A stretch of 12,099 nucleotides of DNA from a virus: UHGV virus genome UHGV-1976345, one strand, 5' to 3'. Of the stretch, positions 1 to 12,099 are shown piece by piece. Every line of letters begins with the position of its first letter. The stretch's first letter is position 1. A program made the translations under genes and the position numbers. Below the pieces are notes generated by a model. That model did no database searches. It worked only from the letters and a program-made list of their open reading frames with translations, and was not told the DNA's origin.

Positions 1-33
1 ACACTCTTTCCCTACACGACGCTCTTCCGATCT
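1..33. other. Illumina TruSeq adapter (technical sequence, not biological)
   Basis: Bases 1-33 read ACACTCTTTCCCTACACGACGCTCTTCCGATCT, identical to the 3' 33 nt of the TruSeq universal adapter / Read 1 primer site; genomic sequence starts at 34. Confidence 0.95.
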
Positions 34-236
34 CGCAGCTGCTCTGTCATGATTTCCACGTCTGCCAGCTCTGCCGCGAGGTCACTTTCGCTGCCCTGTC
101 CGTTCAGGTTGCGGGCAGCACTGGCCGCCAGTTCAGCGGCCTCTTCTGTCAGTTTCAGGGCCTGTGCATCCGGACCGAAACGCTGCAGGGCCAGACGGTA
201 GAGGGCGGTGCGGGTGAGTTCGGTGTTCCGTGTCAT
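12..236 (-). CDS. Hypothetical small phage protein, 3'-partial; possible all-alpha MazG-like NTP pyrophosphohydrolase fold
   Basis: ORF track 12..236 (-). ATG at 236-234 with GAGGG Shine-Dalgarno about 9 nt upstream. The last 7 residues (RDRKSVV) and the stop are encoded by adapter bases 12-33, so the true C-terminus lies off the contig. KLTEEAAELAAS and DLAAELADVEIM resemble the EExxE and ExxD helices of MazG/HisE-type domains (recollection, not searched). Confidence 0.45.
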   Translation of the reverse strand: MTRNTELTRTALYRLALQRFGPDAQALKLTEEAAELAASAARNLNGQGSESDLAAELADVEIMTEQLRDRKSVV

Positions 237-245
237 GCCGCGCCC

Positions 246-518
246 TCAGTGTTTCCGGTCGACGGTGATGTTCAGGCCGCCTTCTGCAGTGGTTTCCACC
301 CGGTACGGCACCTCGTGCTCTGCCGTGTGGGTGAGTGTGTTCATCAGTACCTGCAGGGCAGCCGCCTTTCCGTTGGTTGCCACAATGGCCTGAGCGGCCA
401 TGCTGATTAACGCCGTCAGGACGTGCTTCACATCGGTGAGGTCGCGGCATTCACACTCGTTGACATAGTGTTCAACAAGGGTTCGGGTGCGCTGTCGTGC
501 TTCCTGTGGGGTAATCAT
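246..518 (-). CDS. Hypothetical protein, 90 aa, phage early-region type
   Basis: ORF track 246..518 (-). ATG at 518-516 with GGGAGGA Shine-Dalgarno 7 nt upstream. Start overlaps the stop of the upstream zinc-ribbon ORF (ATGA) and the stop lies 9 nt from the next start, i.e. operon-style packing. No family recognised. Confidence 0.55.
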   Translation of the reverse strand: MITPQEARQRTRTLVEHYVNECECRDLTDVKHVLTALISMAAQAIVATNGKAAALQVLMNTLTHTAEHEVPYRVETTAEGGLNITVDRKH

Positions 519-709
519 TGCGCGTCCTCCCTGTCAGGGCGGGAGAATTCCATGACGGGCACGTCCGCCGAAAAATGCTGGCTGCAGTACGGACAGACCA
601 GGGTGACGCGTACCGCAGGGATGTGGTATTTACCGGACATCACGGCGATGGCGCTGTGAAAACGCAGGGCTGTTATATCCCTCTCGCACTGAATACATTT
701 AAATATCAT
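515..709 (-). CDS. Small zinc-ribbon protein, 64 aa, two CxxC motifs
   Basis: ORF track 515..709 (-). ATG at 709-707 preceded by AGAGGAG. Protein has C5-x2-C8 and C39-x2-C42 (CIQC ... CPYC). Family not recognised; Com-like and Ogr-like were considered but the spacing differs. Confidence 0.55.
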   Translation of the reverse strand: MIFKCIQCERDITALRFHSAIAVMSGKYHIPAVRVTLVCPYCSQHFSADVPVMEFSRPDREDAQ

Positions 710-806
710 AATTTAATTCTCCTCTGTTTCCGGCGTGCAGAAGCCCACGGCGCTGACGCCGGAATAAAAAAGAAAATGTTTTTATTAAATAATTAACGTG
801 GTGTGT

Positions 807-1235
807 TTACTGCACATCCTGCTCAAAAGGAATTATTGAAAAATCCTCAATGTCGCTTTTAATGGAAATACCGGGAATATTTTTCACGGCCTCTTTTTCA
901 TTCAGGATAGCGTCTTTATTTATTTCCTCTTTTACACGAATAAAGCGCTCAAGCCCCAGACGTCTCAGTAATTCAATAACATTATCCGCCCCACGGATAC
1001 TGACTGATGGCGGACGGTTTCGCCACTGCACCTCGCCGGTGGTGAGGTTAGCGAACTTCACCTTCCCGTTGCCGGTCAGTTCATCACGGTGCGCCTCACA
1101 CCATGTCTGGATACCGGACTGCAGTTCGGCCATGCGTTTTTTCAGGCTCTCGGTGACCCGGCGAAACATAAAACGGCGATCGAGGATGAGGTGGTTACCT
1201 TTGACAAATCGACAGGGCAGGCCAGACTGGCGCAT
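807..1235 (-). CDS. gam: Mu Gam-family host-nuclease inhibitor, probably 5'-truncated or with uncertain start
   Basis: C-terminal ~120 aa of minus ORF 807..1703 (WCEAHRDELTGNGKVKFANLTTGEVQWRNRPPSVSIRGADNVIELLRRLGLERFIRVKEEINKDAIL...GISIKSDIEDFSIIPFEQ) match the Mu Gam C-terminal region closely from memory. Stop TAA at 809-807. The nearest in-frame ATG is 1235-1233 with no convincing Shine-Dalgarno. Upstream of about 1250 the ORF is only the antisense shadow of the sheath gene. Confidence 0.7.
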   Translation of the reverse strand: MRQSGLPCRFVKGNHLILDRRFMFRRVTESLKKRMAELQSGIQTWCEAHRDELTGNGKVKFANLTTGEVQWRNRPPSVSIRGADNVIELLRRLGLERFIRVKEEINKDAILNEKEAVKNIPGISIKSDIEDFSIIPFEQDVQ

Positions 1236-1250
1236 CCGGTTGTCGCTAAT

Positions 1251-2327
1251 GTGGTGGTGAAAAACAGTGAAGGCAGCACCACCCACACGGCGAACACGGA
1301 CTACCGTGTTGATGCGCAGGCGGGTGTGCTCACGAACCTGGGCAAGGCTATTGAGGCCGGTGGCAGCGTGAAGGTGAGCTATGAGTACGCGGACCCGTCG
1401 AAGGTGACTGCGGCGGACATCATCGGCGGGGTGAACAGCGCCGGAAACCGAACCGGCATGAAGCTGCTTAACGACAGCTTCAACCTGTACGGCTATTTCG
1501 CCAAAATTCTGATTGCGCCGGTGTTCTGCACCCAGAAGAGTGTCGCAGTTGAGCTTATCGCCATGGCAGAGAAGCTGGGCGCGGTAACCTACATTGATGC
1601 GCCTGTCGGTACCACCTTTGCACAGGCTCTGGCAGGTCGTGGCCCGGAAGGCACCATCAACTTCAATACCAGCTCCGACCGCGTCCGTCTGTGCTATCCG
1701 CATGTGAAGGTATATGACCCGGTGACAAACACAGAGCGTCTGGAGCCGCTCAGCCAGCGTGCAGCAGGTCTGCGTGCCAGAGTCGATCTGGACAAGGGCT
1801 ACTGGTGGTCATCCTCCAATCAGGAGATTCTGGGGATCACCGGCGTGGAGCGCCAGCTGTCCGCGATGATTGATGACCCGCAGAGTGAGGTAAACCTGCT
1901 TAACGAACAGGGGATCACCACGGTATTCAGCAGTTACGGCAGCGGCCTTCGTCTGTGGGGTAACCGGACGGCAGCATGGCCAACGGTCACCCATATGCGT
2001 AACTTTGAGAACGTTCGCCGCACCGGTGATGTGATCAACGAGTCCATTCGTTATTTCAGCCAGCAGTACATCGACATGCCGATTACTCAGGCGCTGATTG
2101 ATGCACTGACGGAGTCGGTCAACGCCTACGGTCGCAAAATGACTGGTGATGGTGCGGTACTGGGCTTCCGTTGCTGGTTTGATCCGGCCCGCAATCCGGA
2201 GACGGAGCTGGCCGCCGGGCACCTGTTGCTGAGCTACAAATATACGCCACCACCGCCGCTGGAGCGACTGACGTTTGAGACTGAGATCACCTCGGAATAC
2301 CTGTTAACCCTGAAAGGGGGCAACTGA
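1251..2327 (+). CDS. Contractile tail sheath protein (P2 FI / Mu L family), 5'-truncated, start undefined
   Basis: Plus ORF 1089..2327. Sheath-like motifs run from about 1290 to the stop at 2325-2327 (VKVSYEYADPSKVTAADIIGG, LRLWGNRTAAW, CWFDPARNPETELAAGHLLLSYKYTPPPPLERLTFE). The conserved N-terminal ~100 aa of sheath proteins is absent, there is no in-frame ATG or RBS near the homology start, and 1089-1250 is antisense to gam. Confidence 0.85.
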   Translation: MVVKNSEGSTTHTANTDYRVDAQAGVLTNLGKAIEAGGSVKVSYEYADPSKVTAADIIGGVNSAGNRTGMKLLNDSFNLYGYFAKILIAPVFCTQKSVAVELIAMAEKLGAVTYIDAPVGTTFAQALAGRGPEGTINFNTSSDRVRLCYPHVKVYDPVTNTERLEPLSQRAAGLRARVDLDKGYWWSSSNQEILGITGVERQLSAMIDDPQSEVNLLNEQGITTVFSSYGSGLRLWGNRTAAWPTVTHMRNFENVRRTGDVINESIRYFSQQYIDMPITQALIDALTESVNAYGRKMTGDGAVLGFRCWFDPARNPETELAAGHLLLSYKYTPPPPLERLTFETEITSEYLLTLKGGN

Positions 2328-2848
2328 TGTCAAAGATTGAGATAAACCGCATCACGAATGCCAACATCTATCTGGATGGTACTAACCTGCTGGGACGGGC
2401 TGAGGAAGTTAAACTCCCCGATGTCTCCATGATTATGCAGGAACACAAGGCGCTGGGGATGGTGGGTAAGGTGGAACTCCCGGCTGGTTTTGACAAACTG
2501 GAAGGCGAAATCAAATGGAACAGCTTTTACCGCGATGCGATGCTGTCTGCCGCGAACCCGTACAGGTCGCTGGCACTGCAGTGTCGTTCCAGCGTCCAGC
2601 GCTACAGCTCGCAGGGGCTGATTGACGAAATCCCGCTGGTCACCTTCCTGACGATTATGTTCAAGAAGAACCCGCTGGGGACGTTCAAACAGCACGAGAA
2701 CGCCGAGTTCTCCAGTAGCTTCACCTGCACGTATATCAGACAGGTACTGGATGGTGAAGAGCTGCTGCAACTGGACTATCTGGCCAACATCTTCCGGGTC
2801 GGCGGTGTTGATCAACTGACTGACTACCGTATCAATATCGGGGGCTGA
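2327..2848 (+). CDS. Tail tube protein (P2 FII family)
   Basis: ORF 2327..2848, 173 aa. ATG overlaps the sheath stop (TGATG) with AAGGGGG upstream. C-terminal FTCTYIRQVLDGEELLQLDYLANIFRVGGVDQLTDYRINIGG resembles the conserved P2 FII-type tube C-terminus (recollection). Confidence 0.9.
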   Translation: MSKIEINRITNANIYLDGTNLLGRAEEVKLPDVSMIMQEHKALGMVGKVELPAGFDKLEGEIKWNSFYRDAMLSAANPYRSLALQCRSSVQRYSSQGLIDEIPLVTFLTIMFKKNPLGTFKQHENAEFSSSFTCTYIRQVLDGEELLQLDYLANIFRVGGVDQLTDYRINIGG

Positions 2849-2850
2849 CG

Positions 2851-3132
2851 ATGAGTGTTGAACTGACGGATAAAGGAAGACGATGTGCGGCACTGGGCAT
2901 GTCAAATGGTACGTGGTTTACCCTCCTTGATATTCCGGGGGTGGAAACCCTTTTTAATACCCGTAAAACCAATGACCCGATTGACTGCACACGTTCAAAG
3001 GCCCGCAAACTGGCGGATTTGATTGAAGCATGGGAGCCTCCCGACCACTGGTTCTCCGGCACCGGCAAATCTGAGGGAAAGACGCTTCTCATCGCTTTCC
3101 TGCGTAACTGCAAGGGGTTTCGCACTTGCTGA
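2851..3132 (+). CDS. Hypothetical 93-aa protein between tube and chaperone genes (possible moron)
   Basis: ORF 2851..3132. ATG sits 2 nt after the tube stop with GGGGG Shine-Dalgarno 7 nt upstream, and is followed by a hairpin terminator. No family recognised. Uses several rare codons (AGA, CGA, GGA, CTT), so coding status is not certain. Confidence 0.45.
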   Translation: MSVELTDKGRRCAALGMSNGTWFTLLDIPGVETLFNTRKTNDPIDCTRSKARKLADLIEAWEPPDHWFSGTGKSEGKTLLIAFLRNCKGFRTC

Positions 3133-3138
3133 CATCAC

Positions 3139-3165
3139 AGGGGCTCCGGCCCCTTCTTCTTAATC
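3139..3165 (+). terminator. Putative intrinsic terminator or attenuator
   Basis: Perfect 6-bp GC-rich stem AGGGGC (3139-3144) / GCCCCT (3149-3154) with 4-nt loop TCCG, followed by T-rich TCTTCTTAATCTCCTTT, 7 nt after the ORF93 stop. Confidence 0.45.
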
Positions 3166-3229
3166 TCCTTTAATATCCGTCACGCGCTTCTCCCGACATA
3201 CTGCCCTGAACTTACACAGGAGCACAATC

Positions 3230-3565
3230 ATGTCACAGACCCCATCCGATACTTTTAAATTGTCTTATCCCTTCACCACTGCTGCAGGCACCAGAATTGA
3301 GCAGGTTGAACTGAAACGCCTGACGGTAAAAGACCTGAAGCAGGTGCGCAAAATCAGCAAAAACCCGGCAGACTGGGACGAACCGCTGATTGCCCGCAGT
3401 ACTGGTCTTCTCCCGGAAGATCTCGACAATATGGATCTGGCTGATTACCTGCAGTTACAGAAACGATTTCAGCTCATCACGGGGATGGGTGAGAGCAACC
3501 AGGGCGCTGACGCAGGCGCAGGGGCTGCTGGCGAGATGGTTCCGGTTTCAGCCGGGGGAGATTGA
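3230..3565 (+). CDS. Tail assembly chaperone, gpE-like (P2 E / lambda G analogue)
   Basis: ORF 3230..3565, 111 aa. AGGAG 7 nt upstream of the ATG. Lies immediately upstream of the tape measure gene and has a Gly/Ala-rich C-terminus, as in E/G-type chaperones; an overlapping out-of-frame extension ORF is present. Confidence 0.8.
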   Translation: MSQTPSDTFKLSYPFTTAAGTRIEQVELKRLTVKDLKQVRKISKNPADWDEPLIARSTGLLPEDLDNMDLADYLQLQKRFQLITGMGESNQGADAGAGAAGEMVPVSAGGD

Positions 3566-3647
3566 TGCCCTCGATACTGACGATCTGGAGATGTGGCTGG
3601 AGCAGGCTGAAGAGCAAATAAAAAGCGAGTACGGCGACAAATCATAG
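3230..3647 (+). CDS. Putative frameshift product E+E' (tail assembly chaperone, long form)
   Basis: ORF 3390..3647 (codon starts at positions divisible by 3) overlaps the 3' end of E (codon starts at positions with remainder 2). Its last 30 codons encode an acidic, protein-like peptide (GEIDALDTDDLEMWLEQAEEQIKSEYGDKS) ending 75 nt before the tape measure start. A GGGGG run at 3554-3558, two codons before the E stop, is the candidate slip site. Offset is +1 or -2, not -1. Confidence 0.5.
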
Positions 3648-3652
3648 TACAG

Positions 3653-3673
3653 ACAGCCGCCAGTAGCGGCTGT
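3653..3673 (+). promoter_or_regulatory. Stem-loop between E' stop and tape measure start
   Basis: ACAGCCGC (3653-3660) / GCGGCTGT (3666-3673), 8-bp stem with 5-nt loop, followed by a moderately T-rich tract (TCTGCGTTATCCCC). The tape measure RBS GGAGG follows at about 3709. Confidence 0.3.
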
Positions 3674-3722
3674 TCTGCGTTATCCCCTCACGTCTTTTCA
3701 CCTTCCCCGGAGGTTAACCACT

Positions 3723-6674
3723 ATGTCGGGACAGTTTTCAGTCGGCGTTGTTATCGGCGGGATGATTGGCAGCACATTCCGTTCTGCAATGAGCGGTACC
3801 CGCCGTGCGCTTGATTCCCTGAGCGATACCTCACGCCGCCTGCAGGAACGTCAGAACGCTTTAACCCGTGCAACAGAACGTTATGGTCAACTGGGTTCTT
3901 CCCGGATGCAGCATCTCAACAGCGAGCTGCTGCGGGTAAGCCGCACCATGGAGCAAATTGAGCGCCAGCAGCGCCGTCTGTCAGCGGCATCCGCTACCAG
4001 TGATGCGCTGAAAGCTAACCGCATGGCGCTGTATGGTCAGGGGATTGAAGCGTATGGCATGGCACAGACTGTTTATCATACGGTTTCCCCTGCCGTTCAG
4101 CAGTCCATGTCTTTTCAGGACAAAATGATTGATATGTCGATCACCGCAAAATATGACAATAAAACGCGGGATGGACTTGCCGGACAGATAAAAGGCTGGG
4201 CGCTTAAATACAATCAGTATCAGGATGAGCTGCAGGAGGCGGTGGGTTCACTCATCAGCGACAATATTGATAATGTGTCAGATATCGGTTTTCTGATGCC
4301 GGATATTGCCCGCGCGGCAACGGCAACACGCACGTCTGCTCAGGACTGGGCAAAAGTGGCCGCAGTCTGGCAAAACTCCCTGAAAGGTGCGGCCAGAGAT
4401 TTTGGTGCCGTTCAGAATATTATGGCTTATGCCGGTGACCAGGGGTCATTTGAAATCCCGGATCAGGTCAAGTGGATGCAGTCCCTGGCCCCAATGATGG
4501 CGGGTATTGCCAGTGGAAAAGAGGCTGTTGCTGAAATCGGGGCCAGTCTCCAGATAGCAAAAATCGGTGCAGGTTCCACCGACGAAGCAGCCAATAATTT
4601 TAAAAACTTTCTTACCAAAATTTTTGCCCGCGATACTCAGAAACAGTTTGCTGATCTGGGTATTGATTTGCAGGGATCTATTGCGAGTTATAAAGCTGCG
4701 GGGATCTCTCCGATTGAAGGGATGTTGAGTGTTATAGAACGTTACCTCAATGCCAAAAGCCCCGAAGCGCTGGCCGGCTTCAAATCAGCCATGAAAATAA
4801 AGAATGATACGGCAAGAGATGAGGCACTTCAGGCTCTGGCGAAAAACTTTGGTCTGGGCGATATGTTCGCGGATATGCAGGTCATGGCATTTATCCGCCC
4901 GATGCTGGCCAACATGGACAGATATCGAGAGATCCGTGCCGGTGCTCTCAGGGCTGCGGATAACGATTTGCTTGCCAGTGCTTATGATCAGCGGCTGAAA
5001 TCTCCCCTTGAAGCCACTAAAACACTTATGGTCAGCAGTCGCGATCTGGCAATTACGCTGGGCGATCAATTAGCTCCATCTTTTATTTCTTTGACTCAGG
5101 AACTGCTTCCACTCATTCAGGGGGCAAAACACTGGGTAGCGACTCACCCGCAATTTGTCAGTGGGGCTTTTAAGCTCATCAGTGCGCTCCTTGCGATTAA
5201 GATAGCGACTGTTGGTCTCAAACTGGGGCTGAATCTCCTTATTTCCCCCTTTGTAAGTGTCTGGAAAAATGCTGTTTTACTTCGGGCCAACTGGCTTCGT
5301 CTGTCGCTCGCACTGGGGCAAGGCGGTAAGCTCCGCTGGCTGGTGACCGGATTTAGCGCCGTCGCCAGAGGAGCCAGAACACTGAGTGGCGTGCTCTCCG
5401 GGGGGCTGGTTCGCGGAATTATGCTCGCCGGACGTGCTGTTCTCTGGATTGGAGGTGCGCTGATGATGAATCCCATCGGTCTCGTTATCACCGCTGTCGC
5501 GGCAGCAGCTTACCTTATCTACCGCAACTGGGGGGCAGTCAGTGGCTGGTTTAAACAGCGCTGGGCAGACATTCAGGAAGCCTTTAACGGCGGCATTGTG
5601 GGAACTGGTAAGTTGCTGATTAACTGGTCGCCGGCAGGCCTGCTCTATAAAGCCTTTGCGGCTGCGCTGAAATATTTCGGCGTTGCTCTGCCGGCAAAGT
5701 TCACCGACTTCGGTGGCCATCTTATCGACGGTCTGATTAACGGTATCAAAAACAAATGGGGGTCGCTCAAATCCAGTGTAACCGGAATGGGTGACAGCAT
5801 CAGTAGCTGGTTTAAACAGTGCTGGGCTGACATTCAGGAAGCCTTTAACGGCGGTATCGCGGGAACTGGTAAGCTGCTGATTAACTGGTCGCCGGCAGGT
5901 CTGCTCTATAAAGCCTTTGCAGCTGCGCTGAAATATCTTGGTGTTGATCTGCCGGCAAAGTTTACCGACTTCGGTGGCCATCTTGTCGATGGTCTGATTA
6001 ACGGTATCAAAAACAAATGGGAGTCGCTCAAATCCAGTGTAACCGGAATGGGTGACAGCATCAGTGGCTGGTTCAGCGAAAAGCTGGGCATTCATTCGCC
6101 GAGCCGCGTGTTTATGGGCTTTGGTGACAATATCGCGCAGGGGGCCGCCATTGGCCTGCAGCGGACCACTCCGCTTGCAGCTCTGGCCGGGCAGCGAATG
6201 GCCAGTGAACTGCTCCCCAGAATGCCCGTGAGCATCCAGGGGCCAGAAATACGGGATAACACTTCAGGTGTTCGCTTCAGTATGCCGTTGCCCGATATCA
6301 ATGGGTTTATGTCGTCTGCTAAAAATGCGATCGGAGCCGTAATCAATAGTTTGTCTTCCATGCCCGCTATTCCGCTCTCCACCCGGGCATCGATTTTACC
6401 AGGGCAACGTCTGGCAAATGAGATGACACCGGATGTTCCCCGTATCCCCTCGCCTGAAATCCTGGCTGCCGGATATTCAGGCCGTGGTGCAGCTGCAACC
6501 GGCGGTGGAACGTCTGGTGGTATCCAGGTCAGCTTTAATCCTCAGTTTTTCCTCAATGGCAGGGAAACCACAGCGCCTGCAGGACTGACTGGTGCCCTGA
6601 ATATGAGTCTGCATGAGCTGGAAAAAATGCTGGAGCGTCTGCTGGCTCAGAAACAACGTAAGGAGTACCGCTGA
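3723..6674 (+). CDS. Tail tape measure protein (P2 T family)
   Basis: ORF 3723..6674, 983 aa. Position after the E/E' pair, Ala/Gln-rich helical N-terminal region, long hydrophobic Gly/Ala/Leu-rich central segment (about residues 480-600) and an internal tandem repeat are all typical of tape measure proteins. GGAGG 9 nt upstream of the ATG. Confidence 0.9.
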   Translation: MSGQFSVGVVIGGMIGSTFRSAMSGTRRALDSLSDTSRRLQERQNALTRATERYGQLGSSRMQHLNSELLRVSRTMEQIERQQRRLSAASATSDALKANRMALYGQGIEAYGMAQTVYHTVSPAVQQSMSFQDKMIDMSITAKYDNKTRDGLAGQIKGWALKYNQYQDELQEAVGSLISDNIDNVSDIGFLMPDIARAATATRTSAQDWAKVAAVWQNSLKGAARDFGAVQNIMAYAGDQGSFEIPDQVKWMQSLAPMMAGIASGKEAVAEIGASLQIAKIGAGSTDEAANNFKNFLTKIFARDTQKQFADLGIDLQGSIASYKAAGISPIEGMLSVIERYLNAKSPEALAGFKSAMKIKNDTARDEALQALAKNFGLGDMFADMQVMAFIRPMLANMDRYREIRAGALRAADNDLLASAYDQRLKSPLEATKTLMVSSRDLAITLGDQLAPSFISLTQELLPLIQGAKHWVATHPQFVSGAFKLISALLAIKIATVGLKLGLNLLISPFVSVWKNAVLLRANWLRLSLALGQGGKLRWLVTGFSAVARGARTLSGVLSGGLVRGIMLAGRAVLWIGGALMMNPIGLVITAVAAAAYLIYRNWGAVSGWFKQRWADIQEAFNGGIVGTGKLLINWSPAGLLYKAFAAALKYFGVALPAKFTDFGGHLIDGLINGIKNKWGSLKSSVTGMGDSISSWFKQCWADIQEAFNGGIAGTGKLLINWSPAGLLYKAFAAALKYLGVDLPAKFTDFGGHLVDGLINGIKNKWESLKSSVTGMGDSISGWFSEKLGIHSPSRVFMGFGDNIAQGAAIGLQRTTPLAALAGQRMASELLPRMPVSIQGPEIRDNTSGVRFSMPLPDINGFMSSAKNAIGAVINSLSSMPAIPLSTRASILPGQRLANEMTPDVPRIPSPEILAAGYSGRGAAATGGGTSGGIQVSFNPQFFLNGRETTAPAGLTGALNMSLHELEKMLERLLAQKQRKEYR
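5547..6068 (+). repeat. In-frame tandem duplication (2 x 261 bp) inside the tape measure gene
   Basis: Copy 1 at 5547-5807 and copy 2 at 5808-6068 both begin TGGTTTAAACAG; about 17 mismatches over 261 bp (roughly 93% identity by hand count). Encodes two 87-aa units, WFKQ(R/C)WADIQEAFNGGI...GMGDSIS(S/G). A third unit starts at 6069 (TGGTTCAGCG) then diverges. Confidence 0.9.
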
Positions 6675-7558
6675 TGTTTGCCGTACTGGGTGATATTGAG
6701 TTTGAGCTGATTACCTACTGGGACGGCTTCGAGGCCACGTTCGGCGTCGATTATGCGGAGCATGCCCGCATCGGGGGTAAGCCTGGCCTGCAGTTCGTCG
6801 GCGACAGGCTGGACGAAATCCAGATAACTCTGGTTTTCCATCAGCATTATTGTGTACCCGATGTGGAGCTGGCGAGACTGCGAACAGCCATGAAAGCCCA
6901 TCAGGCACTGGCGCTGGTCTTCGGCAACGGTGACTATCGCGGCTGGTTCGTGATTACCGATGTGACTGCAACCAGCGAGCAGACTGACAGTACCGGCAAC
7001 GTGCTGGCTGTCAGTGCCACCGTGTCTCTCCGGGAATACACCGGTGACCCGAAAAATCCTCTGCAACCACCGGCAATACGCACGAAGCTCCCGGGTGTCG
7101 GGGCGGTCTCCGGTGCCATACCTTCACCTTCAGGGGTGGCGCAGTTCATCCGCAACGGCGTCAACTATGCGAAACAGGCGCAGTCTGTACTCCAGACCAC
7201 TATCAGCGCCGTTCGGGTGACACAGAAAATGAAGGATAACCCCGTTGTCGCACTGACCCGTGTGCCGGGGCTGATGAGCGGACTGGGTAATATCTCCGGG
7301 GCTCTGGGGAAAAGTGTTCCGGCGTTTAACGCACTCTCTGAATCCATGCCCGATGCCATCAGTCTGGCCAGAACAGCCAGCGAAGCAGCCACGTATGTAC
7401 AGCAGGCACAGTCTGCGCTGAGTGGTGTGGACAAAAGAAATATTGCAGGTGCTCTGGATACCGTTTCCGGGCAGCTTAACGCCGCCGGCACAGCATTCAA
7501 CCGCATGTCTCCGGGATTAAGTGCAATGGCCGCCAGAATACTGACGAGGAGTGTGTGA
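6674..7558 (+). CDS. gpU-family tail protein with about 150-aa C-terminal extension
   Basis: ORF 6674..7558, 294 aa. ATG overlaps the tape measure stop (TGATG) with AAGGAG upstream. The N-terminal ~130 aa fit the P2 gpU pattern (LGxIEFE...IGGKPGLQFVGDRLDEIQITLVF...GWFVITDV). The remainder is Ala/Ser/Gly/Gln-rich and unassigned. Confidence 0.75.
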   Translation: MFAVLGDIEFELITYWDGFEATFGVDYAEHARIGGKPGLQFVGDRLDEIQITLVFHQHYCVPDVELARLRTAMKAHQALALVFGNGDYRGWFVITDVTATSEQTDSTGNVLAVSATVSLREYTGDPKNPLQPPAIRTKLPGVGAVSGAIPSPSGVAQFIRNGVNYAKQAQSVLQTTISAVRVTQKMKDNPVVALTRVPGLMSGLGNISGALGKSVPAFNALSESMPDAISLARTASEAATYVQQAQSALSGVDKRNIAGALDTVSGQLNAAGTAFNRMSPGLSAMAARILTRSV

Positions 7559-7770
7559 TGTTTCTTGAACATGTTACCCGTGACGGAGAGCGCTGGGATT
7601 CGCTGGCATGGCAGTACTACGGTGACCCGCTGGGCTATCCCCGGATTATTGCCGCCAATCCGCACGTGGCCATCACGCCGGTGCTGCCCTCCGGGCTGTT
7701 GTTACTGATCCCGGTGATTGAGGCTGAAGAAGCCCGTACAGAAGAGGATATTGCCCCATGGCTGAGATAA
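7558..7770 (+). CDS. Tail protein X (LysM-like, P2 gpX family)
   Basis: ORF track 7555..7770 (GTG at 7555; ATG at 7558 is the more likely start and overlaps the U stop). MFLEHVTRDGERWDSLAWQYYGDPLGYPRIIAANPHV fits the gpX LysM-like pattern. GAGGAG upstream. Confidence 0.85.
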   Translation: MFLEHVTRDGERWDSLAWQYYGDPLGYPRIIAANPHVAITPVLPSGLLLLIPVIEAEEARTEEDIAPWLR

Positions 7771-8912
7771 ACAGCACTGCGCAAGTCACATCAGCGTTAA
7801 CCGGCGTCAGCGATGTGCTGACACCGGTGTTCACTTTGTGGTATCTGCAGAAAAACATCACCTCTGATATCGCGCCTTATGTCACCCGTGTGACCTGGAG
7901 CGATAACATCAAAAATGAGTCCGATACCATTGAGGTGGAGCTGGACGACACCGATGGCCGCTGGCTGGATAAATGGTATCCGGGCAAGGGTGACACGCTG
8001 ACGCTGAAAATGGGCTATCAGGGCGAGAAGCTGCTGTCCTGCGGTACGTTCTCTATAGACGAGATCGAAGTGAGTTCGCCCGCTTCCGTTGTTTCTATCC
8101 GTGGGGTGGCCACCTCGGTTAACAGTGCCCTGCGGACTAAAACCAGTCGTGGTTTTGAGAACACCACGCTGGCAGCTGTTGCGGGGCGGATTGCCAGAAA
8201 GCACCGACTGAAACTGGTGGGCAGCATTGAGTCCATCAGAATCGACCGGGTGACCCAGTATGCTGAAACCGACGTGGGTTTTCTGCGCCGGCTGGCCAGC
8301 GAGTATGGTTATGCAGTGAAAGTGGTCAGTGACCAGCTGATTTTTTCTCATCTGGCCACACTGCGCAGTCAGGAGCCGGTCAGGCAGTTAAAACCGCAGG
8401 ATGTGGCCCGCTTTTCCCTGCGTGACACCATCAACCGGGTCTATAAATCTGCAAAGGTAAAACACCAGAAAAGCAGCAGTAAAAAACTGATCGTCTACGA
8501 AGCTGATGGTGGTACCCGTGAAAGCGACAAAAAGCTCAAAGGTGGTAAGGTTACCAGCGCTGACTCACTTAAAGTTAACAGCCGCGTCAGCGACCCGGAC
8601 AGTGCCCGGATTAAAGCGGATTCAGCACTGGCCAGACATAACGAATACCAGCAGAACGGCTCCCTGACGCTGACGGGAACACCTCAACTGACAGCAGGCA
8701 ACAAAATTGAACTGGTGGGTTTTGGGCAGTTATCCGGGCCATGGCTCATAACCACTGCCCGCCATGCGTTTGACCGTAACAGCGGCTACACCACAGAGCT
8801 GGAAGTGGCACGGGGGCCAGTCACAAGAGGGAAAAAACAAAAAACTCAGAAACTCACGGTTTATCACCCGGATGGCAGTACATCGACGGTGATTAAGGAG
8901 AAGAAAAAATGA
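7758..8912 (+). CDS. Baseplate hub / late control protein D (P2 gpD family)
   Basis: ORF 7758..8912, 384 aa, similar in size to P2 gpD. Start overlaps the X 3' end by 13 nt with GAGGA 11 nt upstream. Has gpD-like motifs (FSIDEIEV, YAETDVGFLRRLASEYGYAVKV) and sits after X and before V. Confidence 0.9.
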   Translation: MAEINSTAQVTSALTGVSDVLTPVFTLWYLQKNITSDIAPYVTRVTWSDNIKNESDTIEVELDDTDGRWLDKWYPGKGDTLTLKMGYQGEKLLSCGTFSIDEIEVSSPASVVSIRGVATSVNSALRTKTSRGFENTTLAAVAGRIARKHRLKLVGSIESIRIDRVTQYAETDVGFLRRLASEYGYAVKVVSDQLIFSHLATLRSQEPVRQLKPQDVARFSLRDTINRVYKSAKVKHQKSSSKKLIVYEADGGTRESDKKLKGGKVTSADSLKVNSRVSDPDSARIKADSALARHNEYQQNGSLTLTGTPQLTAGNKIELVGFGQLSGPWLITTARHAFDRNSGYTTELEVARGPVTRGKKQKTQKLTVYHPDGSTSTVIKEKKK

Positions 8913-9505
8913 CTGGTGTCACTCGTCAGGTCGGTACGGTCAGTGCCGTTGATGCCGACAGGGTTCAGGCCCGCGTTCGTCTGCCTGAATGCGATAACCT
9001 GCGCACAAACTGGCTTAACGTGCTGCAGCGCAATACCCAGGATAACAAAGATTACTGGCTCCCTGACGTGGGGGAGCAGGTTGAGGTGCTGCTCGATGCC
9101 AACGGCGAGGATGGTGTTATTCTGGGCGCGGTGTATTCAGACGTCGATAAACCACCGTTCAGTGACAAAAATATCCGGGGAACCCGGTTTGCTGATGGTG
9201 CAGAGTACAGCTACAACCGGAAGACGCACACTCTGACCATCCGGGGCGGCATTGAGCATATTGTCATTGAGTGTGGTGCTGATGTGGTATTGAAAACACA
9301 GAAAGCCACGATTGACGCACCGGAAACCGAACTTACCGGAGATCTGCGTGTCAGGGGTAAGCTGATTTACGAAGGAGGCATGGCGGGTTCTGGTGGTGAA
9401 GGTGTTACCGCGACCATCCATGGCAATATCGAGATTAAAGGGAATGCCCATGCCACGGGCAGTATGTTGTCTGATGGCGAAAACTCCAGCCACCACTCCC
9501 ACTGA
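8909..9505 (+). CDS. Baseplate central spike protein (P2 gpV family)
   Basis: ORF 8909..9505, 198 aa. ATGA overlap with D and AAGGAGA upstream. WLPDVGEQVEVLL and a C-terminal Gly-rich beta-helix-like region ending in the His-rich SSHHSH match the gpV pattern. Confidence 0.9.
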   Translation: MTGVTRQVGTVSAVDADRVQARVRLPECDNLRTNWLNVLQRNTQDNKDYWLPDVGEQVEVLLDANGEDGVILGAVYSDVDKPPFSDKNIRGTRFADGAEYSYNRKTHTLTIRGGIEHIVIECGADVVLKTQKATIDAPETELTGDLRVRGKLIYEGGMAGSGGEGVTATIHGNIEIKGNAHATGSMLSDGENSSHHSH

Positions 9506-9541
9506 GCTTTTTAAACGCCTTTAATATCAGCGTTCCCGCAC

Positions 9542-9559
9542 GGGGGCAATACTGCCCCC
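9542..9559 (+). promoter_or_regulatory. GC-rich stem-loop directly abutting the gpW start codon
   Basis: GGGGGCA (9542-9548) / TGCCCCC (9553-9559), 7-bp stem with ATAC loop; the W ATG begins at 9560. No T-tract follows, so it is not called a terminator. Confidence 0.35.
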
Positions 9560-9907
9560 ATGAAAACAACCTCAGTATTCTGGCAACCGACCCTGCAGGC
9601 TCCCGGCGAAATTGTCCGGGGGCTGGATGATATCCGGCAGGCGATTCAAATTATCCTGCGGACTCCCCGCGGCAGCGACCCGCATCGCCCGGAGTTCGGC
9701 AGCAATCTGCATCTTTATATCGACTGGCCTGTAGACCGGGCCATTCCGCATGTGGTGCGCGAATCCGTCGATGCCATCCGGCGCTGGGAGCCCCGCTGCC
9801 AGCTTATGTCAGTTAAACCCGCCGTCGACGGCGAACATCTTACGCTCCGGGTGAGCTGGAAAGGCTCAGACGGACAGACCCGGACTCAGGAGCTGCTATG
9901 GCGCTGA
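9560..9907 (+). CDS. Baseplate wedge protein (P2 gpW / T4 gp25-like)
   Basis: ORF 9560..9907, 115 aa. IRQAIQIILRTPRGSDPHRPEFGSNL and RRWEPRCQL match the GPW/gp25 pattern (ILxTPxGS ... WEPR). Confidence 0.85.
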   Translation: MKTTSVFWQPTLQAPGEIVRGLDDIRQAIQIILRTPRGSDPHRPEFGSNLHLYIDWPVDRAIPHVVRESVDAIRRWEPRCQLMSVKPAVDGEHLTLRVSWKGSDGQTRTQELLWR

Positions 9908-11001
9908 CAGAACCCGATTTTATTGAACGCGATGCCGACAAAATCACGGCAGAAATGATTGCGAAGTATGAAGCGGATACCGGCAAAACGCTGTACCCGG
10001 CACAGGCAGAACGTCTGCTGATTGATCTGTGGGCCTATCGCGAAATGCTGGTCAGGGTTGCGGTACAGGAGGCAGCAAAGCAGAATCTGGTCGCCTTTGC
10101 CCGTGAGCCGATGATTGATTACCTCGGTGAACTGGTCGGTGTATACCGTCTTGCCGCGCAGCCTGCCACTACCACGCTCCAGTTCTCCGTAGATGAGGCA
10201 CTGGCCATTGATGTGCTGATCCCGGCAGGCACCCGCGTCAGCGCTTCCGACAGCGTTATTTTTGCCACCGATACAGATGTGGTACTGAAGGCCGGATTGC
10301 TGCTGGTCAATGTCACGTCCACCTGTACCGAACCCGGTACCGCTGGTAACGGCTGGCAACCTGCGCAGGTCAGTCAGTTACTCGATGAGATTGATAACGT
10401 CGACCTGCTGGTGAGCAATCTGACGGCCAGTTCCGGCGGTTCAGAACAGGAAGACGATGACAGGCTCCGGGAGCGTATCAGGCTGGCCCCGGAGTCATTC
10501 ACCAATGCCGGAAGCCGTGGCGCATACCGCTTTCATGCCATGCAGGCCCATCCCAACATTGTCGATGTTGCTGTGCTTTCCCCGGTTCCCGGGACCGTAG
10601 ATCTGTATCCGCTGCTCAGTACCGGTCTGCCGGACGGCGGTGTTCTCACGCTGGTAGAGAGTTTCTGCTCTGATGAGAAAGTCAGGCCACTCACTGATAC
10701 AGTGCGGGCTAAAACACCAGTGAAGGTGGATTACACCATTGAAGCCAAGATTACGATCTATCGTGATCAGGATGCCAGGTCTGTAAAAGATGCCGCTAAC
10801 AGCGCCATACAGAACTGGGTGGCATCACGTGCCGCCACGCTGGGGCGCGATATTGTCCCCAGCCAGATTATCAGTGCATTGTCCGTTTCCGGGGTGTACC
10901 AGGTTGAACTGGTGACACCGGCACTGCGGGTGGTGGCAGAAAACGAATGGGCAAACTGTACGGCAATCACTCTTAACATGACTGGAGTGTCTGATGACTG
11001 A
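9898..11001 (+). CDS. Baseplate protein J (P2 gpJ / T4 gp6-like)
   Basis: ORF 9898..11001, 367 aa. Overlaps the W stop by 10 nt with AGGAG upstream. SFTNAGSRGAYRFHAMQAHPNIVDVAV and LGRDIVPSQIISALSVSGVYQVEL match conserved gpJ regions. Confidence 0.9.
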   Translation: MALTEPDFIERDADKITAEMIAKYEADTGKTLYPAQAERLLIDLWAYREMLVRVAVQEAAKQNLVAFAREPMIDYLGELVGVYRLAAQPATTTLQFSVDEALAIDVLIPAGTRVSASDSVIFATDTDVVLKAGLLLVNVTSTCTEPGTAGNGWQPAQVSQLLDEIDNVDLLVSNLTASSGGSEQEDDDRLRERIRLAPESFTNAGSRGAYRFHAMQAHPNIVDVAVLSPVPGTVDLYPLLSTGLPDGGVLTLVESFCSDEKVRPLTDTVRAKTPVKVDYTIEAKITIYRDQDARSVKDAANSAIQNWVASRAATLGRDIVPSQIISALSVSGVYQVELVTPALRVVAENEWANCTAITLNMTGVSDD

Positions 11002-11572
11002 GCCATTACAACTCCCGCCACCGCTTGAGGGTGATATCAGTCTCAGGACGCTGGGAAGACTGGCAGGACGGCTGGATAACATCGACCTGAGCGTACTGAT
11101 GGTCTTTCTCGTCGATATCGTCGACAGTTCCGCGCTGCCATGGCTGGGCGAGCAGTTCTCACTGTCTGGCGATGGCTGGGAGCTGGCGGAATCGGACGAT
11201 GTTCGCCGCATGCTTATAAAAGCAGCCATCGAACTGCACCGGTATAAAGGGACGCCGTGGTCAATCCGGGAAGTTATCCGCCGTTTTGGCTTTGGTGAAG
11301 TGGATCTGATTGAAGGCACAGGTCGTCTCAGTTACGACGGCAATCGCAGCTATAACGGACTGTTTGTTCATGGAGATGCAGCCGCCTGGGCAGTTTATCG
11401 CGTTATTCTGAAACAGCCCATTACTAACGATCAGGCCGCGATGCTGCGTCAGACGCTGGCTGCATTTGCACCGGCCCGCTGCCATCTGGCCAGCCTGGAG
11501 TATCAGTCTGTGGCCATTCGCTATAACAATACCGCCATCCATGATGGCAGTTATAACCACGGGAGCAGTTGA
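10994..11572 (+). CDS. Baseplate / tail protein I (P2 gpI family)
   Basis: ORF 10994..11572, 192 aa. Overlaps the J stop by 8 nt with GGAG upstream. ALPWLGEQFSL ... HRYKGTPWSIREVIRRFG fits the gpI pattern (LPWLA ... H.KGT). Confidence 0.85.
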   Translation: MTEPLQLPPPLEGDISLRTLGRLAGRLDNIDLSVLMVFLVDIVDSSALPWLGEQFSLSGDGWELAESDDVRRMLIKAAIELHRYKGTPWSIREVIRRFGFGEVDLIEGTGRLSYDGNRSYNGLFVHGDAAAWAVYRVILKQPITNDQAAMLRQTLAAFAPARCHLASLEYQSVAIRYNNTAIHDGSYNHGSS

Positions 11573-11574
11573 TT

Positions 11575-12099
11575 ATGGGAAACCTGAATGAAACAGAAAA
11601 GTGGGAAGAAAATATCTATCAACTGGAGACATCAGATCCGGTTCTGGGTGGTGCAGACGGGATATCAAATCGAGCCCCCCGGCAACTGGCAAACAGGACG
11701 AAATGGCTGAAGAAAAAAACGGAGGAAGCCGCACAGTCACTGGCTGAACACGTACGTTCCCGTAACCACCCGGACGCGACACTGACAGCTAAGGGGTTCA
11801 CCCAACTGAGCAGTGCCACCAACAGCACCTCTGAAACGCTGGCCGCCACACCAAAGGCCGTCAAGGCTGCATATGACCTGGCTGCCGGCAAGGCCCCCGT
11901 CAGCCATACTCACCCGTGGAGTCAGATAACGGGAGTGCCTGCTGCCTCGCTGACGGCAAAAGGCACCGTACAACTGAGCAGCGCCACGGACAGTCAATCA
12001 GAAACTGAGGCTGCCACGCCGAAGGCGGTCAAGGCTGTATACGACCTTGCAGCCGGCAAGGCGCCCGTCAGCCACACTCACCCGTGGAGTCAGATAACG
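11575..12099 (+). CDS. Tail fiber protein (P2 gpH-like), 5' portion only; runs off the window end
   Basis: ATG at 11575, 2 nt after the I stop, with GGGAG upstream; frame is open to 12099 and not in the ORF track because no stop is reached. Contains HPDATLTAKGFTQLSSATNSTSETLAATPKAVKAAYDLA, the conserved fiber collar repeat seen in P2 H and lambda-type side tail fibers. Confidence 0.85.
   Translation, partial: MGNLNETEKWEENIYQLETSDPVLGGADGISNRAPRQLANRTKWLKKKTEEAAQSLAEHVRSRNHPDATLTAKGFTQLSSATNSTSETLAATPKAVKAAYDLAAGKAPVSHTHPWSQITGVPAASLTAKGTVQLSSATDSQSETEAATPKAVKAVYDLAAGKAPVSHTHPWSQIT
11782..12099 (+). repeat. Tandem tail-fiber repeat (2 units of about 150 nt, 168-nt period)
   Basis: Unit 1 at 11782-11931 and unit 2 at 11950-12099, both ending GCCGGCAAGGC(C/G)CCCGTCAGCCA(T/C)ACTCACCCGTGGAGTCAGATAACG. 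The 5' halves differ at many synonymous sites; the 3' ~45 nt are nearly identical. The window ends exactly at the end of unit 2. Confidence 0.85.

What the first reader, a model, noticed from the sequence alone, without database searches (positions are those of the whole stretch)
5537..6080. Fairly recent in-frame 87-aa tandem duplication inside the tape measure protein
Two 261-bp copies (5547-5807 and 5808-6068) are about 93% identical, with 7 amino-acid differences per 87-aa unit. Tape measure length sets tail length in long-tailed phages (established for lambda gpH and other tape measure proteins), so this element should have a longer tail than single-copy relatives. The repeat also creates the spurious minus-strand ORFs 5277..6095, 5645..5833 and 5906..6091.
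Basis: partly seen in the sequence, partly recalled or inferred. Interest (0 to 1): 0.55.

Follow-up and report, generated by a model that had tools for sequence, protein, structure and literature searches.

The report
Variable-copy repeat in phage tape measure
The 87-amino-acid tandem duplication is real and lies in the tail-length "ruler" gene of a common Mu-like E. coli prophage, but it is old and shared, and related prophages carry one, two or three copies, which makes it a tidy but ordinary case of how phages probably adjust tail length.

Summary
There are two in-frame 261-bp units (5539-6073, 17 nt and 7 aa differences) inside a 983-aa tape measure gene (3723-6674). That gene belongs to a prophage with Mu-like early and head genes and a P2-type contractile tail.

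The two-copy gene is identical in finished E. coli chromosomes, so it is not an assembly artefact. It is also not private or recent. About 65% of roughly 630 related prophages in complete E. coli genomes have two units, about 20% have three and 2-3% have one.

Flanking tape-measure sequence differs by no more than 1.6% among these alleles, while the two units differ by 6.5% (dS 0.19, dN/dS 0.19). The close single-copy alleles are clean 5'-unit1/3'-unit2 chimeras. The extra unit of three-copy alleles is the reciprocal chimera. This is the signature of unequal crossing-over. The ancestral single-unit state survives in a lineage about 89% identical (E. coli GABEEC10 and IAL7250, Klebsiella phage KP12).

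The unit is a conserved all-helical module with no Pfam or NCBIfam model. It occurs in 1-4 copies in many distant tape measure proteins. Each unit should add about 13 nm (3-4 tube and sheath rings) to the tail. That effect is inferred, not shown.

The parts
3723..6674 (+). Tail tape measure protein gene (983 aa)
   Evidence: It is the only long ORF here. PF10145 matches aa 159-340 at 74 bits and TIGR01760 matches aa 120-493 at 56 bits. PHROG tape-measure families also match. The gene is annotated as a tape measure protein in more than 600 E. coli genomes.
5541..5801 (+). Repeat unit 1 (aa 607-693, codon register)
   Evidence: Diagnostic residues are G2 R7 V20 F46 A49 I62 G74.
5802..6062 (+). 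Repeat unit 2 (aa 694-780)
   Evidence: It differs from unit 1 at 17 nt and 7 aa. Diagnostic residues are S2 C7 A20 L46 D49 V62 E74.
5539..5551 (+). 13-nt boundary repeat TCAGTGGCTGGTT (encodes S-G-W-F), left end of the array
   Evidence: A similar imperfect short direct repeat brackets the single unit in the outgroups L008-L010. This is the likely substrate of the original duplication (inference).
5800..5812 (+). 13-nt boundary repeat at the unit1/unit2 junction (TCAGTAGCTGGTT)
6061..6073 (+). 13-nt boundary repeat after unit 2 (partial third copy)
5154..5522 (+). Two hydrophobic segments (aa 478-508 and 572-600) immediately upstream of the repeat
   Evidence: Kyte-Doolittle scan, 19-aa windows scoring at least 1.6.
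3230..3647 (+). Tail assembly chaperone gpE (3230-3565) with an overlapping E' frame ORF ending at 3647
   Evidence: PF10109 matches at 78.7 bits. The ORF 3390..3647 is listed. The equivalent position in relatives is annotated as 'GpE family phage tail protein'.
6674..7558 (+). gpU-like tail protein directly downstream of the tape measure gene
   Evidence: PF06995 matches at 132 bits.
5277..6095 (-). Antisense ORFs (272 aa here, plus 5645..5833 and 5906..6091), non-coding by-products
   Evidence: Listed. In the frame of the 272-aa ORF, 13 of 17 unit differences are non-synonymous, against 7 in the sense frame.

Best explanation
The feature is a genuine in-frame tandem duplication of a conserved, all-helical 87-aa module of the tail tape measure protein. 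The host element is a transposable E. coli prophage with Mu-like early and head genes and a P2-type contractile tail.

Origin (inferred): the duplication arose once in this lineage, by recombination or slippage between the short direct repeat TCAGTRRCTGGTT that brackets the single ancestral unit.

What the sequences show: the two copies then diverged to 6.5% under purifying selection. Since then the array has behaved as a copy-number-variable locus. Unequal homologous crossing-over between misaligned units has repeatedly produced three-copy alleles and reciprocal one-copy chimeric alleles, along with gene-conversion mosaics.

Function (inferred from established ruler behaviour of tape measure proteins): tape measure length sets tail length at about 1.5 A per residue. 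Each unit should therefore add about 13 nm, or 3-4 rings of tube and sheath hexamers. That predicts tails of about 135, 148 and 161 nm for the 896-, 983- and 1070-aa alleles, and about 124 nm for the 821-aa ancestral type.
For: The repeat is real and in frame.

It is not an artefact. The 2952-bp gene is 99.7-100% identical in many complete chromosomes, and window 1155-12099 matches HSP60 with 1 mismatch in 10,945 nt.

Copy number varies. Genes of 2691, 2952 and 3213 bp are annotated as intact tape measure proteins. Two evenly spaced samples of 60 from the 636 matching genomes each gave about 65% two-copy, 18-23% three-copy and 2-3% one-copy, with about 7% from the diverged single-unit lineage. 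Protein classes of 896, 961, 983 and 1070 aa appear in the 5.8-billion-protein database, with no four-copy protein among those listed.

Unequal crossover is visible in the sequences. The single-copy unit is unit1-like at positions 4-99 and unit2-like at positions 120-221. The middle unit of three-copy alleles is the reciprocal chimera, unit2-like at its 5' end and unit1-like at its 3' end. The switch points differ between L004/L006 and L005. Protein alleles show many different mosaic patterns. Three-copy alleles sit on two different flanking backgrounds.

Relative ages: flanks of the 1-, 2- and 3-copy alleles are 98.4-100% identical, while the units are 93.5% identical. dS between units is 0.19 and dN/dS is 0.19. 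dS from either unit to the outgroup unit is 0.41-0.56. Of the differences that could be polarised, 7 are derived in unit 1 and 7 in unit 2. The boundary short repeat is present in single-unit outgroups.

The module recurs. The 87-aa unit matches 561 representative clusters. Among the 91 listed representatives of at least 700 aa, 57 have one copy, 24 two, 8 three and 2 four. Periods of 76, 83, 87 and 113 aa occur, and within-protein unit identities are 35-75%.

The unit is helical. AlphaFold2 with a 51-sequence alignment gave pLDDT 84.9 for the best model, with four helices.

Ruler scaling from the literature: Mu has 30 rings at about 35 A rise, and the C-terminus of its tape measure gp42 was modelled at residues 674-690 (PMC11915804). 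phiCbK has a 1964-aa tape measure, a predicted tail of 295 nm and a measured tail of 300 nm (PMC3556154). Engineered deletions and a duplication in the TP901-1 tape measure change tail length proportionally (PMC5099701).
Against: No tail has been measured for any allele.

The module is more conserved than a passive spacer needs to be: 4 invariant and 14 nearly invariant positions across relatives 45-59% identical, and dN/dS 0.19. It may therefore have a specific function.

The predicted helices are interrupted at conserved Gly/Pro positions and could fold back, which would give less than 1.5 A per residue. The five AlphaFold2 models also disagree in confidence (49-85).

Some of these prophages carry pseudogenes. 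IAI39 has three internal stops, and L004 has a disrupted three-copy tape measure gene. The window contig lacks the head genes and the 5' end of the sheath gene. Not every copy is therefore under selection for a working tail.

Many of the 896-aa proteins come from draft assemblies, where assembler collapse would produce the same chimeras.
Confidence: 0.72

Rival explanations
1. Assembly artefact. The short-read assembler expanded or mis-joined a single unit, so the two copies in this window are not real.
For: The window is a short-read contig with visible artefacts. Bases 1-33 are an Illumina adapter, and bases 34-1156 are joined to the middle of the sheath gene at a 2-nt microhomology. Phage PhiKM has a 100-N gap inside this repeat.
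Against: The same 2952-bp two-copy gene is 99.7-100% identical in dozens of complete chromosomes from independent projects. The 17 differences between units are reproduced in those genomes.
Confidence: 0.02
2. One reading: a recent duplication particular to this element, with the single-copy relatives representing the ancestral, shorter-tailed state.
For: Single-copy alleles exist that are 99.9-100% identical in the flanks. More distant single-unit relatives also exist.
Against: The close single-copy units are clean unit1/unit2 chimeras carrying the derived states of both units. They therefore descend from a two-copy allele. The duplication is present in about 90% of roughly 630 related prophages. 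Unit divergence (6.5%, dS 0.19) far exceeds allele divergence (no more than 1.6%).
Confidence: 0.06
3. The duplication was created by unequal or illegitimate recombination between two already diverged single-copy alleles from different phages. On this view the 6.5% divergence predates the duplication, which could be much younger than dS suggests.
For: Phage genomes are mosaic. The region just upstream of the repeat exists in two variant forms (SAVARGARTLSGV... and SRLTSGGLKLSKV...). Derived changes are somewhat clustered: 5 of 7 unit1-derived changes fall in the 5' part and 6 of 7 unit2-derived changes in the 3' part.
Against: That clustering is not significant. My own Fisher estimate on the 5/2 versus 1/6 split gives p of about 0.1, and it was not run as a tool call. 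No pure unit1-type or unit2-type single-copy allele was found. Both units are equally distant from the outgroups (dS 0.41-0.56 for each).
Confidence: 0.1
4. The module is a functional domain rather than a ruler segment. It could be a chaperone-binding, tube-lumen-contacting or membrane-channel element that follows the hydrophobic segments. Copy number would then change the dose of that function, or be nearly neutral, without changing tail length proportionally.
For: Sequence conservation is strong across distant tape measure proteins, with a signature of the form W..IK.AF.GGI.G...LI.NWSPLGLFYKAFA...FG..LP.KFT.FG. dN/dS is 0.19. The module lies directly after two hydrophobic segments. The predicted helices are broken at conserved Gly/Pro positions.
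Against: In every tape measure protein tested experimentally, internal in-frame deletions or duplications changed tail length roughly in proportion. This holds even in the first hydrophobic region of TP901-1 (PMC5099701). The lambda gpH and T4 gp29 results I cite from my own knowledge. The recurrence of 1-4 copies at different periods in distant tape measure proteins fits a length-tuning role.
Confidence: 0.15

Closest known systems
Engineered in-frame deletions and duplications of tape measure proteins: lambda gpH (Katsura & Hendrix 1984; Katsura 1987), TP901-1 TMP (Pedersen 2000; Mahony 2016, PMC5099701) and T4 gp29 (own knowledge)
   Same: These are in-frame changes in the length of the tape measure protein. 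They are expected to change tail length in proportion (TP901-1: a 29% change in residues gave about a 30% change in tail length).
   Different: Here the length variants are natural and segregate among near-identical prophages as 1, 2 or 3 copies of one 87-aa module. The tail is contractile (P2-type sheath and tube). No tail measurements exist.
Periodic 11-aa (or 11/18-aa) Trp/Phe repeats of tape measure proteins (Belcaid, Bergeron & Poisson 2011, PMC3271669; TP901-1, PMC5099701)
   Same: Both are tandem units inside a tape measure protein whose number varies between related phages, with a history of duplication and loss.
   Different: The unit here is 87 aa. It shows no 11-residue Trp/Phe periodicity and has its own conserved signature. 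Only 1-3 nearly identical copies are present, rather than tens of short degenerate ones.
Mu gp42 and P2 gpT tape measure proteins of contractile-tailed temperate phages
   Same: The tape measure gene occupies the same place in the tail gene order (sheath, tube, chaperone E/E', tape measure, U, X, D). In Mu the protein is trimeric, fills the tube lumen and sets a tail of 30 rings (PMC11915804).
   Different: At 983 aa this protein is about 40% longer than Mu gp42, whose C-terminus lies at about residue 690. I did not compare it directly with Mu gp42 or P2 gpT, and I did not check whether they contain the 87-aa module.
Copy-number variation of tandem arrays by unequal crossing-over with concerted evolution (general genetic mechanism)
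   Same: Reciprocal products are seen: a chimeric single unit, and a chimeric extra unit in the three-copy alleles. Homogenised alleles also occur (for example P0075, GRVFTIG|SRVFTIG).
   Different: There is nothing unusual mechanistically. The array is very short (1-3 units) and lies inside a structural phage gene.

Membership tests
Phage tail tape measure protein (PF10145 PhageMin_Tail / TIGR01760 tape_meas_TP901) | Match to the family profile above the curated cut-off | tested here: met
   PF10145 scores 74 bits against a cut-off of 33.2. TIGR01760 scores 56.3 bits against 28.8. PHROG tape-measure families also match.
Phage tail tape measure protein (PF10145 PhageMin_Tail / TIGR01760 tape_meas_TP901) | Gene lies directly after the tail assembly chaperone pair (gpE/E') and before the distal tail and baseplate hub genes, and is the longest tail gene | tested here: met
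   The order is sheath, tube, PF10109 chaperone, the 983-aa ORF, gpU, gpX, gpD, V, W, J, I. Annotations of relatives agree.
Phage tail tape measure protein (PF10145 PhageMin_Tail / TIGR01760 tape_meas_TP901) | Largely alpha-helical protein | tested here: inconclusive
   The repeat unit is predicted as four helices at pLDDT 84.9 in the best of five models, but the others score 49-76. A single-sequence model of aa 590-806 is helical but has pLDDT 41.5. The rest of the protein was not modelled.
Phage tail tape measure protein (PF10145 PhageMin_Tail / TIGR01760 tape_meas_TP901) | Protein length determines tail length | not testable with these tools
   This needs electron microscopy of particles from lysogens carrying 1, 2 or 3 units.
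Tape measure proteins with 11-aa periodic Trp/Phe repeats (Belcaid et al. 2011) | Tandem units of 11 (or 11/18) residues marked by Trp/Phe at fixed spacing | tested here: not met
   Autocorrelation of W/F over aa 605-800 shows no peak at 11 or 18 residues. The period here is 87 aa.
Tape measure proteins with 11-aa periodic Trp/Phe repeats (Belcaid et al. 2011) | Unit number varies between related phages | tested here: met
   One, two and three units occur among near-identical E. coli prophages. One to four occur in distant tape measure proteins.
Mu-like / BcepMu-like transposable prophage | Mu-type early genes (DDE transposase, MuB-like ATPase, Gam, Mor) and Mu-type head genes combined with P2-type tail genes | tested here: met
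   This was tested in the 99.99%-identical HSP60 prophage, which has an integrase-catalytic-domain transposase, an ExeA-family protein, Gam, Mor, gp16, DUF935 portal, and Mu F and G homologues. PhiKM is annotated with Mup names and classed as Bcepmuvirus by its depositor. The window itself holds only a Gam fragment and the tail genes.
Mu-like / BcepMu-like transposable prophage | Insertion by transposition at varied chromosomal sites | tested here: inconclusive
   The HSP60 copy lies between sufC and sufB. The IAI39 copy has a different right flank, next to remnants of another prophage. Prophage ends and target duplications were not examined.
Tandem array evolving by unequal crossing-over | Reciprocal recombinant products: a deletion allele with a chimeric unit and an expansion allele with the complementary chimeric unit | tested here: met
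   The variable-site table shows L002 and L003 as unit1-5'/unit2-3' chimeras. The middle unit of L004 and L006 is unit2-5'/unit1-3'. L005 has a different switch point. Many mosaic classes appear among the proteins.

The most novel reading that the evidence does not exclude
The 87-aa module is an unnamed, widely distributed tape-measure domain with no Pfam or NCBIfam model. On this reading it acts as a quantal length unit, each copy adding a fixed whole number (3 or 4) of tube and sheath rings. The E. coli prophage population would then maintain three discrete tail-length morphs (about 135, 148 and 161 nm) through recurrent unequal crossing-over under diversifying selection, for example to match differences in host envelope or capsule thickness.
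Probability: 0.1. Interest if true: 0.6.

Novelty: new member of a known kind. Interest (0 to 1): 0.33.

Why it matters
Tape measure duplications, and the rule that tape measure length sets tail length, are textbook knowledge, so the finding itself is not surprising.

What it does offer is a ready-made natural allelic series. Tape measure genes with 1, 2 or 3 copies of one module (896, 983 and 1070 aa) sit in otherwise near-identical contractile-tailed prophages of clinical E. coli lineages. An ancestral 821-aa type is available as a further point. This series could test the ruler model and the ring quantisation of tail length in a myovirus without any engineering.

There is also a practical lesson. 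The locus breaks or collapses in short-read assemblies, so tape measure lengths taken from draft genomes should not be trusted here.

Tried and rejected
(1) Assembly artefact was rejected, because the identical two-copy gene occurs in many complete chromosomes.

(2) Single-copy close relatives as the ancestral state was rejected on the chimera pattern and on outgroup polarisation.

(3) Belcaid-type 11-aa W/F periodicity is not present.

(4) I looked for older degenerate copies of the unit elsewhere in this protein by an ungapped self-comparison. The only other hit is a 21-aa similarity at offset 71.

(5) The single-sequence AlphaFold2 model of aa 590-806 had pLDDT 41.5 and was uninformative.

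(6) A Foldseek search of the unit model against the PDB gave no matches. A profile search of PDB sequences gave only weak tape-measure hits, the best being 9m8o_M Gp14 at E = 0.0015.

(7) Pfam and NCBIfam have no model for the unit. PHROGs places it only in phrog_5690, 'unknown function'.

(8) A literature search for phage PhiKM returned only unrelated phiKMV-type papers. Searches for reports of copy-number variation in this prophage's tape measure gene found none. This library is limited, so absence here is not proof.

(9) One paper search failed on syntax.

(10) No four-copy allele appeared, either among the 120 best-scoring protein clusters listed or in the two samples of 60 genomes.
Full report
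OBSERVATION. Tandem Repeats Finder reports a single array in the window, at 5539-6073, with period 261, 2.0 copies, 93% matches, no indels and score 951. The repeat finder agrees. The offset-261 match string runs from 5539 to 5812. The array is therefore two full units plus a 13-nt overhang: TCAGTGGCTGGTT at 5539 and 6061, and TCAGTAGCTGGTT at the internal junction at 5800. The repeat is in frame in ORF 3723..6674 (983 aa). In the frame of the 272-aa antisense ORF, 13 of the 17 unit differences are non-synonymous, against 7 in the sense frame. This fits by-products rather than genes.

WHAT THE GENE AND THE ELEMENT ARE. The ORF matches PF10145 (74 bits), TIGR01760 (56 bits) and PHROG tape-measure families. 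It sits in the gene order sheath, tube, small ORF, gpE/E' chaperone, tape measure, gpU, gpX, gpD, V, W, J, I. The nearest phage record is Escherichia phage PhiKM (96.9% identity), annotated with Mu gene names and classed as Bcepmuvirus by its depositor. The nearest chromosome is E. coli HSP60, where window 1155-12099 matches with one mismatch in 10,945 nt. There the prophage carries Mu-type early genes (DDE transposase, ExeA/MuB-like, Gam, Mor) and Mu-type head genes, and lies between sufC and sufB. Related tape measure genes occur in 636 of 5,426 complete E. coli genomes.

THE WINDOW IS A FLAWED SHORT-READ CONTIG, BUT THE REPEAT IS NOT AN ARTEFACT. Bases 1-33 are the Illumina TruSeq adapter (identified from my own knowledge). 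Bases 34-1156 are the early (Gam) region of the same prophage. They are joined at a 2-nt microhomology to codon ~86 of the sheath gene, skipping about 20.6 kb. PhiKM has a 100-N gap inside this very repeat. Even so, the 2952-bp two-copy gene is 99.7-100% identical in many independently finished chromosomes, including IAI39, CE10, EC958 and HSP60.

COPY NUMBER IS POLYMORPHIC. Fetched loci show intact annotated tape measure genes of three lengths:
- 2691 bp with one unit (MLI121, UPEC129).
- 2952 bp with two units (E41-1, IAI39, HSP60).
- 3213 bp with three units (GPEC172, 10034292-3).

There is also a 2886-bp two-unit allele with a separate 22-aa deletion. A unit scan confirmed 1, 2 or 3 units in each locus.

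Two evenly spaced samples of 60 from the 636 matching genomes gave these counts:
- about 41 two-copy, 11 three-copy, 2 one-copy and 4 of the diverged single-unit type.
- 39 two-copy, 14 three-copy and 1 one-copy, plus 6 other matches, 3 of them clearly the diverged type.

These genomes are not independent, because clonal lineages such as ST131 are heavily represented. The 5.8-billion-protein database shows the same classes of 1070, 983, 961 and 896 aa. No four-unit protein is among the 120 best-scoring clusters listed.

MECHANISM OF THE VARIATION. Write the window's units as a1b1 and a2b2. At the sites that distinguish them:
- The single unit of MLI121 and UPEC129 is a1|b2, with the switch between unit positions 99 and 120.
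- The three-copy alleles of A1.S1.65 and 10034292-3 are [a1b1][a2b1][a2b2], with the switch at positions 65-73.
- The GPEC172 allele switches between positions 4 and 19.

These are the reciprocal products expected from unequal crossing-over between misaligned two-copy alleles, and they arose more than once. At seven diagnostic residues the database proteins show many further mosaics. These include at least six different single-copy breakpoints and homogenised two-copy alleles. Three-copy alleles occur on two different upstream backgrounds. One caveat applies: assembler collapse in draft genomes would yield the same single-copy chimeras. One-copy alleles are rare in complete genomes (1-2 per 60) yet make up 26 of the 120 listed clusters. 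That list is not a proportional sample.

AGE AND ORIGIN. Flanking tape-measure sequence of the 1-, 2- and 3-copy alleles is 98.4-100% identical, while the two units are 93.5% identical. Between units, dS is 0.19, dN is 0.036 and dN/dS is 0.19. Both copies are therefore under purifying selection.

A separate lineage has a single unit and an 821-825-aa protein. It comprises E. coli IAL7250 and GABEEC10 and Klebsiella phage KP12, at 86-91% nucleotide identity over the aligned parts. Either window unit is at dS 0.41-0.56 from that unit. Of the 17 differences, 7 are derived in unit 1, 7 in unit 2 and 3 are ambiguous.

The duplication therefore arose once in the window's lineage, after its split from the KP12-like lineage and well before the present alleles diversified. 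It is neither private nor recent. The outgroups carry an imperfect short direct repeat encoding (S/G)xWF at both ends of their single unit. This is the likely substrate of the original event (inference). I cannot exclude an origin by recombination between two already diverged alleles, but no pure unit1-type or unit2-type single-copy allele was seen.

THE UNIT IS A CONSERVED, RECURRENTLY DUPLICATED MODULE. Searched alone against 1.84 billion representative proteins, the 87-aa unit matches 561 clusters at E ≤ 1e-3 and 310 at E ≤ 1e-10. Among the 91 listed representatives of at least 700 aa, 57 have one copy, 24 two, 8 three and 2 four. Repeat periods of 76 (the commonest), 83, 87 and 113 aa occur, along with partial repeats at 42 and 49 aa. 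Within-protein unit identities are 35-75%. This implies independent, older duplications with different boundaries.

A 51-sequence alignment gives the signature W..IK.AF.GGI.G...LI.NWSPLGLFYKAFA...FG..LP.KFT.FG....GL..GI, with 4 invariant and 14 nearly invariant positions. Pfam and NCBIfam have no model for the unit. With that alignment AlphaFold2 predicts four helices (residues 2-16, 18-28, 31-45 and 54-86) at pLDDT 84.9 in its best model, but the five models range from 49 to 85. No PDB fold match was found. There is no 11-residue Trp/Phe periodicity. The unit follows two hydrophobic segments at aa 478-508 and 572-600.

EXPECTED CONSEQUENCE (INFERRED). Published scalings are close to 1.5 A per residue:
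- Mu has 30 rings at about 35 A rise, and the C-terminus of its tape measure gp42 was modelled at residues 674-690 (PMC11915804).
- phiCbK has a 1964-aa tape measure, a predicted tail of 295 nm and a measured tail of 300 nm (PMC3556154).
- TP901-1 has a 118-nm tail for about 810 length-determining residues, and engineered deletions and a duplication change tail length in proportion (PMC5099701).

On that basis 87 aa corresponds to 12.7-13.2 nm, or 3.3-3.8 rings. The 821-, 896-, 983- and 1070-aa alleles then predict tails of about 124, 135, 148 and 161 nm. No measurement exists for any of them. The strong conservation of the module leaves room for a specific function beyond spacing.

VERDICT. 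The duplication is old and shared, the close single-copy relatives are derived deletions, and three-copy alleles are common. This is a new, well-documented example of a known phenomenon. It is useful as a natural allelic series but is not a surprise to specialists.

Noticed in passing
window 1-33: ACACTCTTTCCCTACACGACGCTCTTCCGATCT is the Illumina TruSeq universal adapter / read-1 primer sequence (own knowledge). The window is therefore an untrimmed short-read contig.
   Followed up: partly
window 34-1156 joined to 1155-12099: The first 1.1 kb is the early region of the same Mu-like prophage (NTP pyrophosphohydrolase gene, two hypothetical genes and the 3' part of gam, all on the minus strand). 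It is fused at a 2-nt microhomology to codon ~86 of the sheath gene. About 20.6 kb present in HSP60 is missing: transposase, repressor, lysis and head genes and the 5' end of the sheath gene. This is either a chimeric assembly or a deletion derivative. The sheath ORF is truncated in the window (1089..2327).
   Followed up: partly
window 11803-12099 (tail fibre gene, starts about 11575): The last 300 nt match three positions spaced 168 nt apart in the HSP60 tail fibre gene, at 84-92% identity. These are 56-aa tandem repeats in the fibre. The contig ends inside them, probably because the assembler could not resolve them.
   Followed up: no
window 6189-6401 (tape measure aa 823-893): This 71-aa segment is absent from the single-unit outgroup lineage (IAL7250, GABEEC10, KP12). 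It is bounded by two similar 21-aa stretches, TTPLAALAGQRMASELLPRMP and STRASILPGQRLANEMTPDVP. It is a second length-changing indel in the same protein, either an old partial duplication or a deletion between short repeats.
   Followed up: partly
window 5340-5405 (tape measure aa 540-561); locus L007: E. coli FDAARGOS_1252 and a 961-aa protein class lack these 22 residues (LVTGFSAVARGARTLSGVLSGG), deleted between two 'LV' positions. This is a third natural length variant of the same protein.
   Followed up: no
L001 (PhiKM PQ738613) 10915-11014: The deposited phage genome has a 100-N sequencing gap inside the repeat, and its tape measure gene is annotated as two fragments. Its copy number is therefore unknown.
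   Followed up: yes
L013/L014 (E. coli HSP60 NZ_CM137001, about 553,000-591,000): The full prophage sits between sufC and sufB, splitting the suf Fe-S cluster operon. This is what random Mu-type transposition would produce.
   Followed up: no
protein clusters P0078-P0120 (896 aa): One-unit proteins are 26 of the 120 listed clusters, mostly from draft assemblies, and have many different chimera breakpoints. Only 1-2 of 60 sampled complete genomes are one-unit. Some may be repeat collapses by assemblers rather than real alleles. The cluster list is not a proportional sample.
   Followed up: partly
L004 (A1.S1.65) 1501-4713; H123 (Ecol_448): Some three-unit tape measure genes are annotated as pseudogene fragments (L004). 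One place in Ecol_448 is 3212 bp rather than 3213 bp, which suggests a frameshift. IAI39's prophage has internal stops in three other genes. Several copies of this prophage are therefore decaying.
   Followed up: no
L010 (Klebsiella phage KP12 clone KP12_2, OM835952): This record is classed as Vequintavirinae but carries the same P2-type tail cluster and a single-unit 821-aa tape measure gene about 86% identical to the window. It looks like a co-assembled prophage fragment or a mislabelled record.
   Followed up: no
window 5448-5450 (tape measure aa 576): The window, and HSP60 which matches it here, read WIGGALMM. All nine other tape measure alleles aligned read WIGRALMM, so this Arg-to-Gly change in the second hydrophobic segment is particular to this allele.
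   Followed up: no
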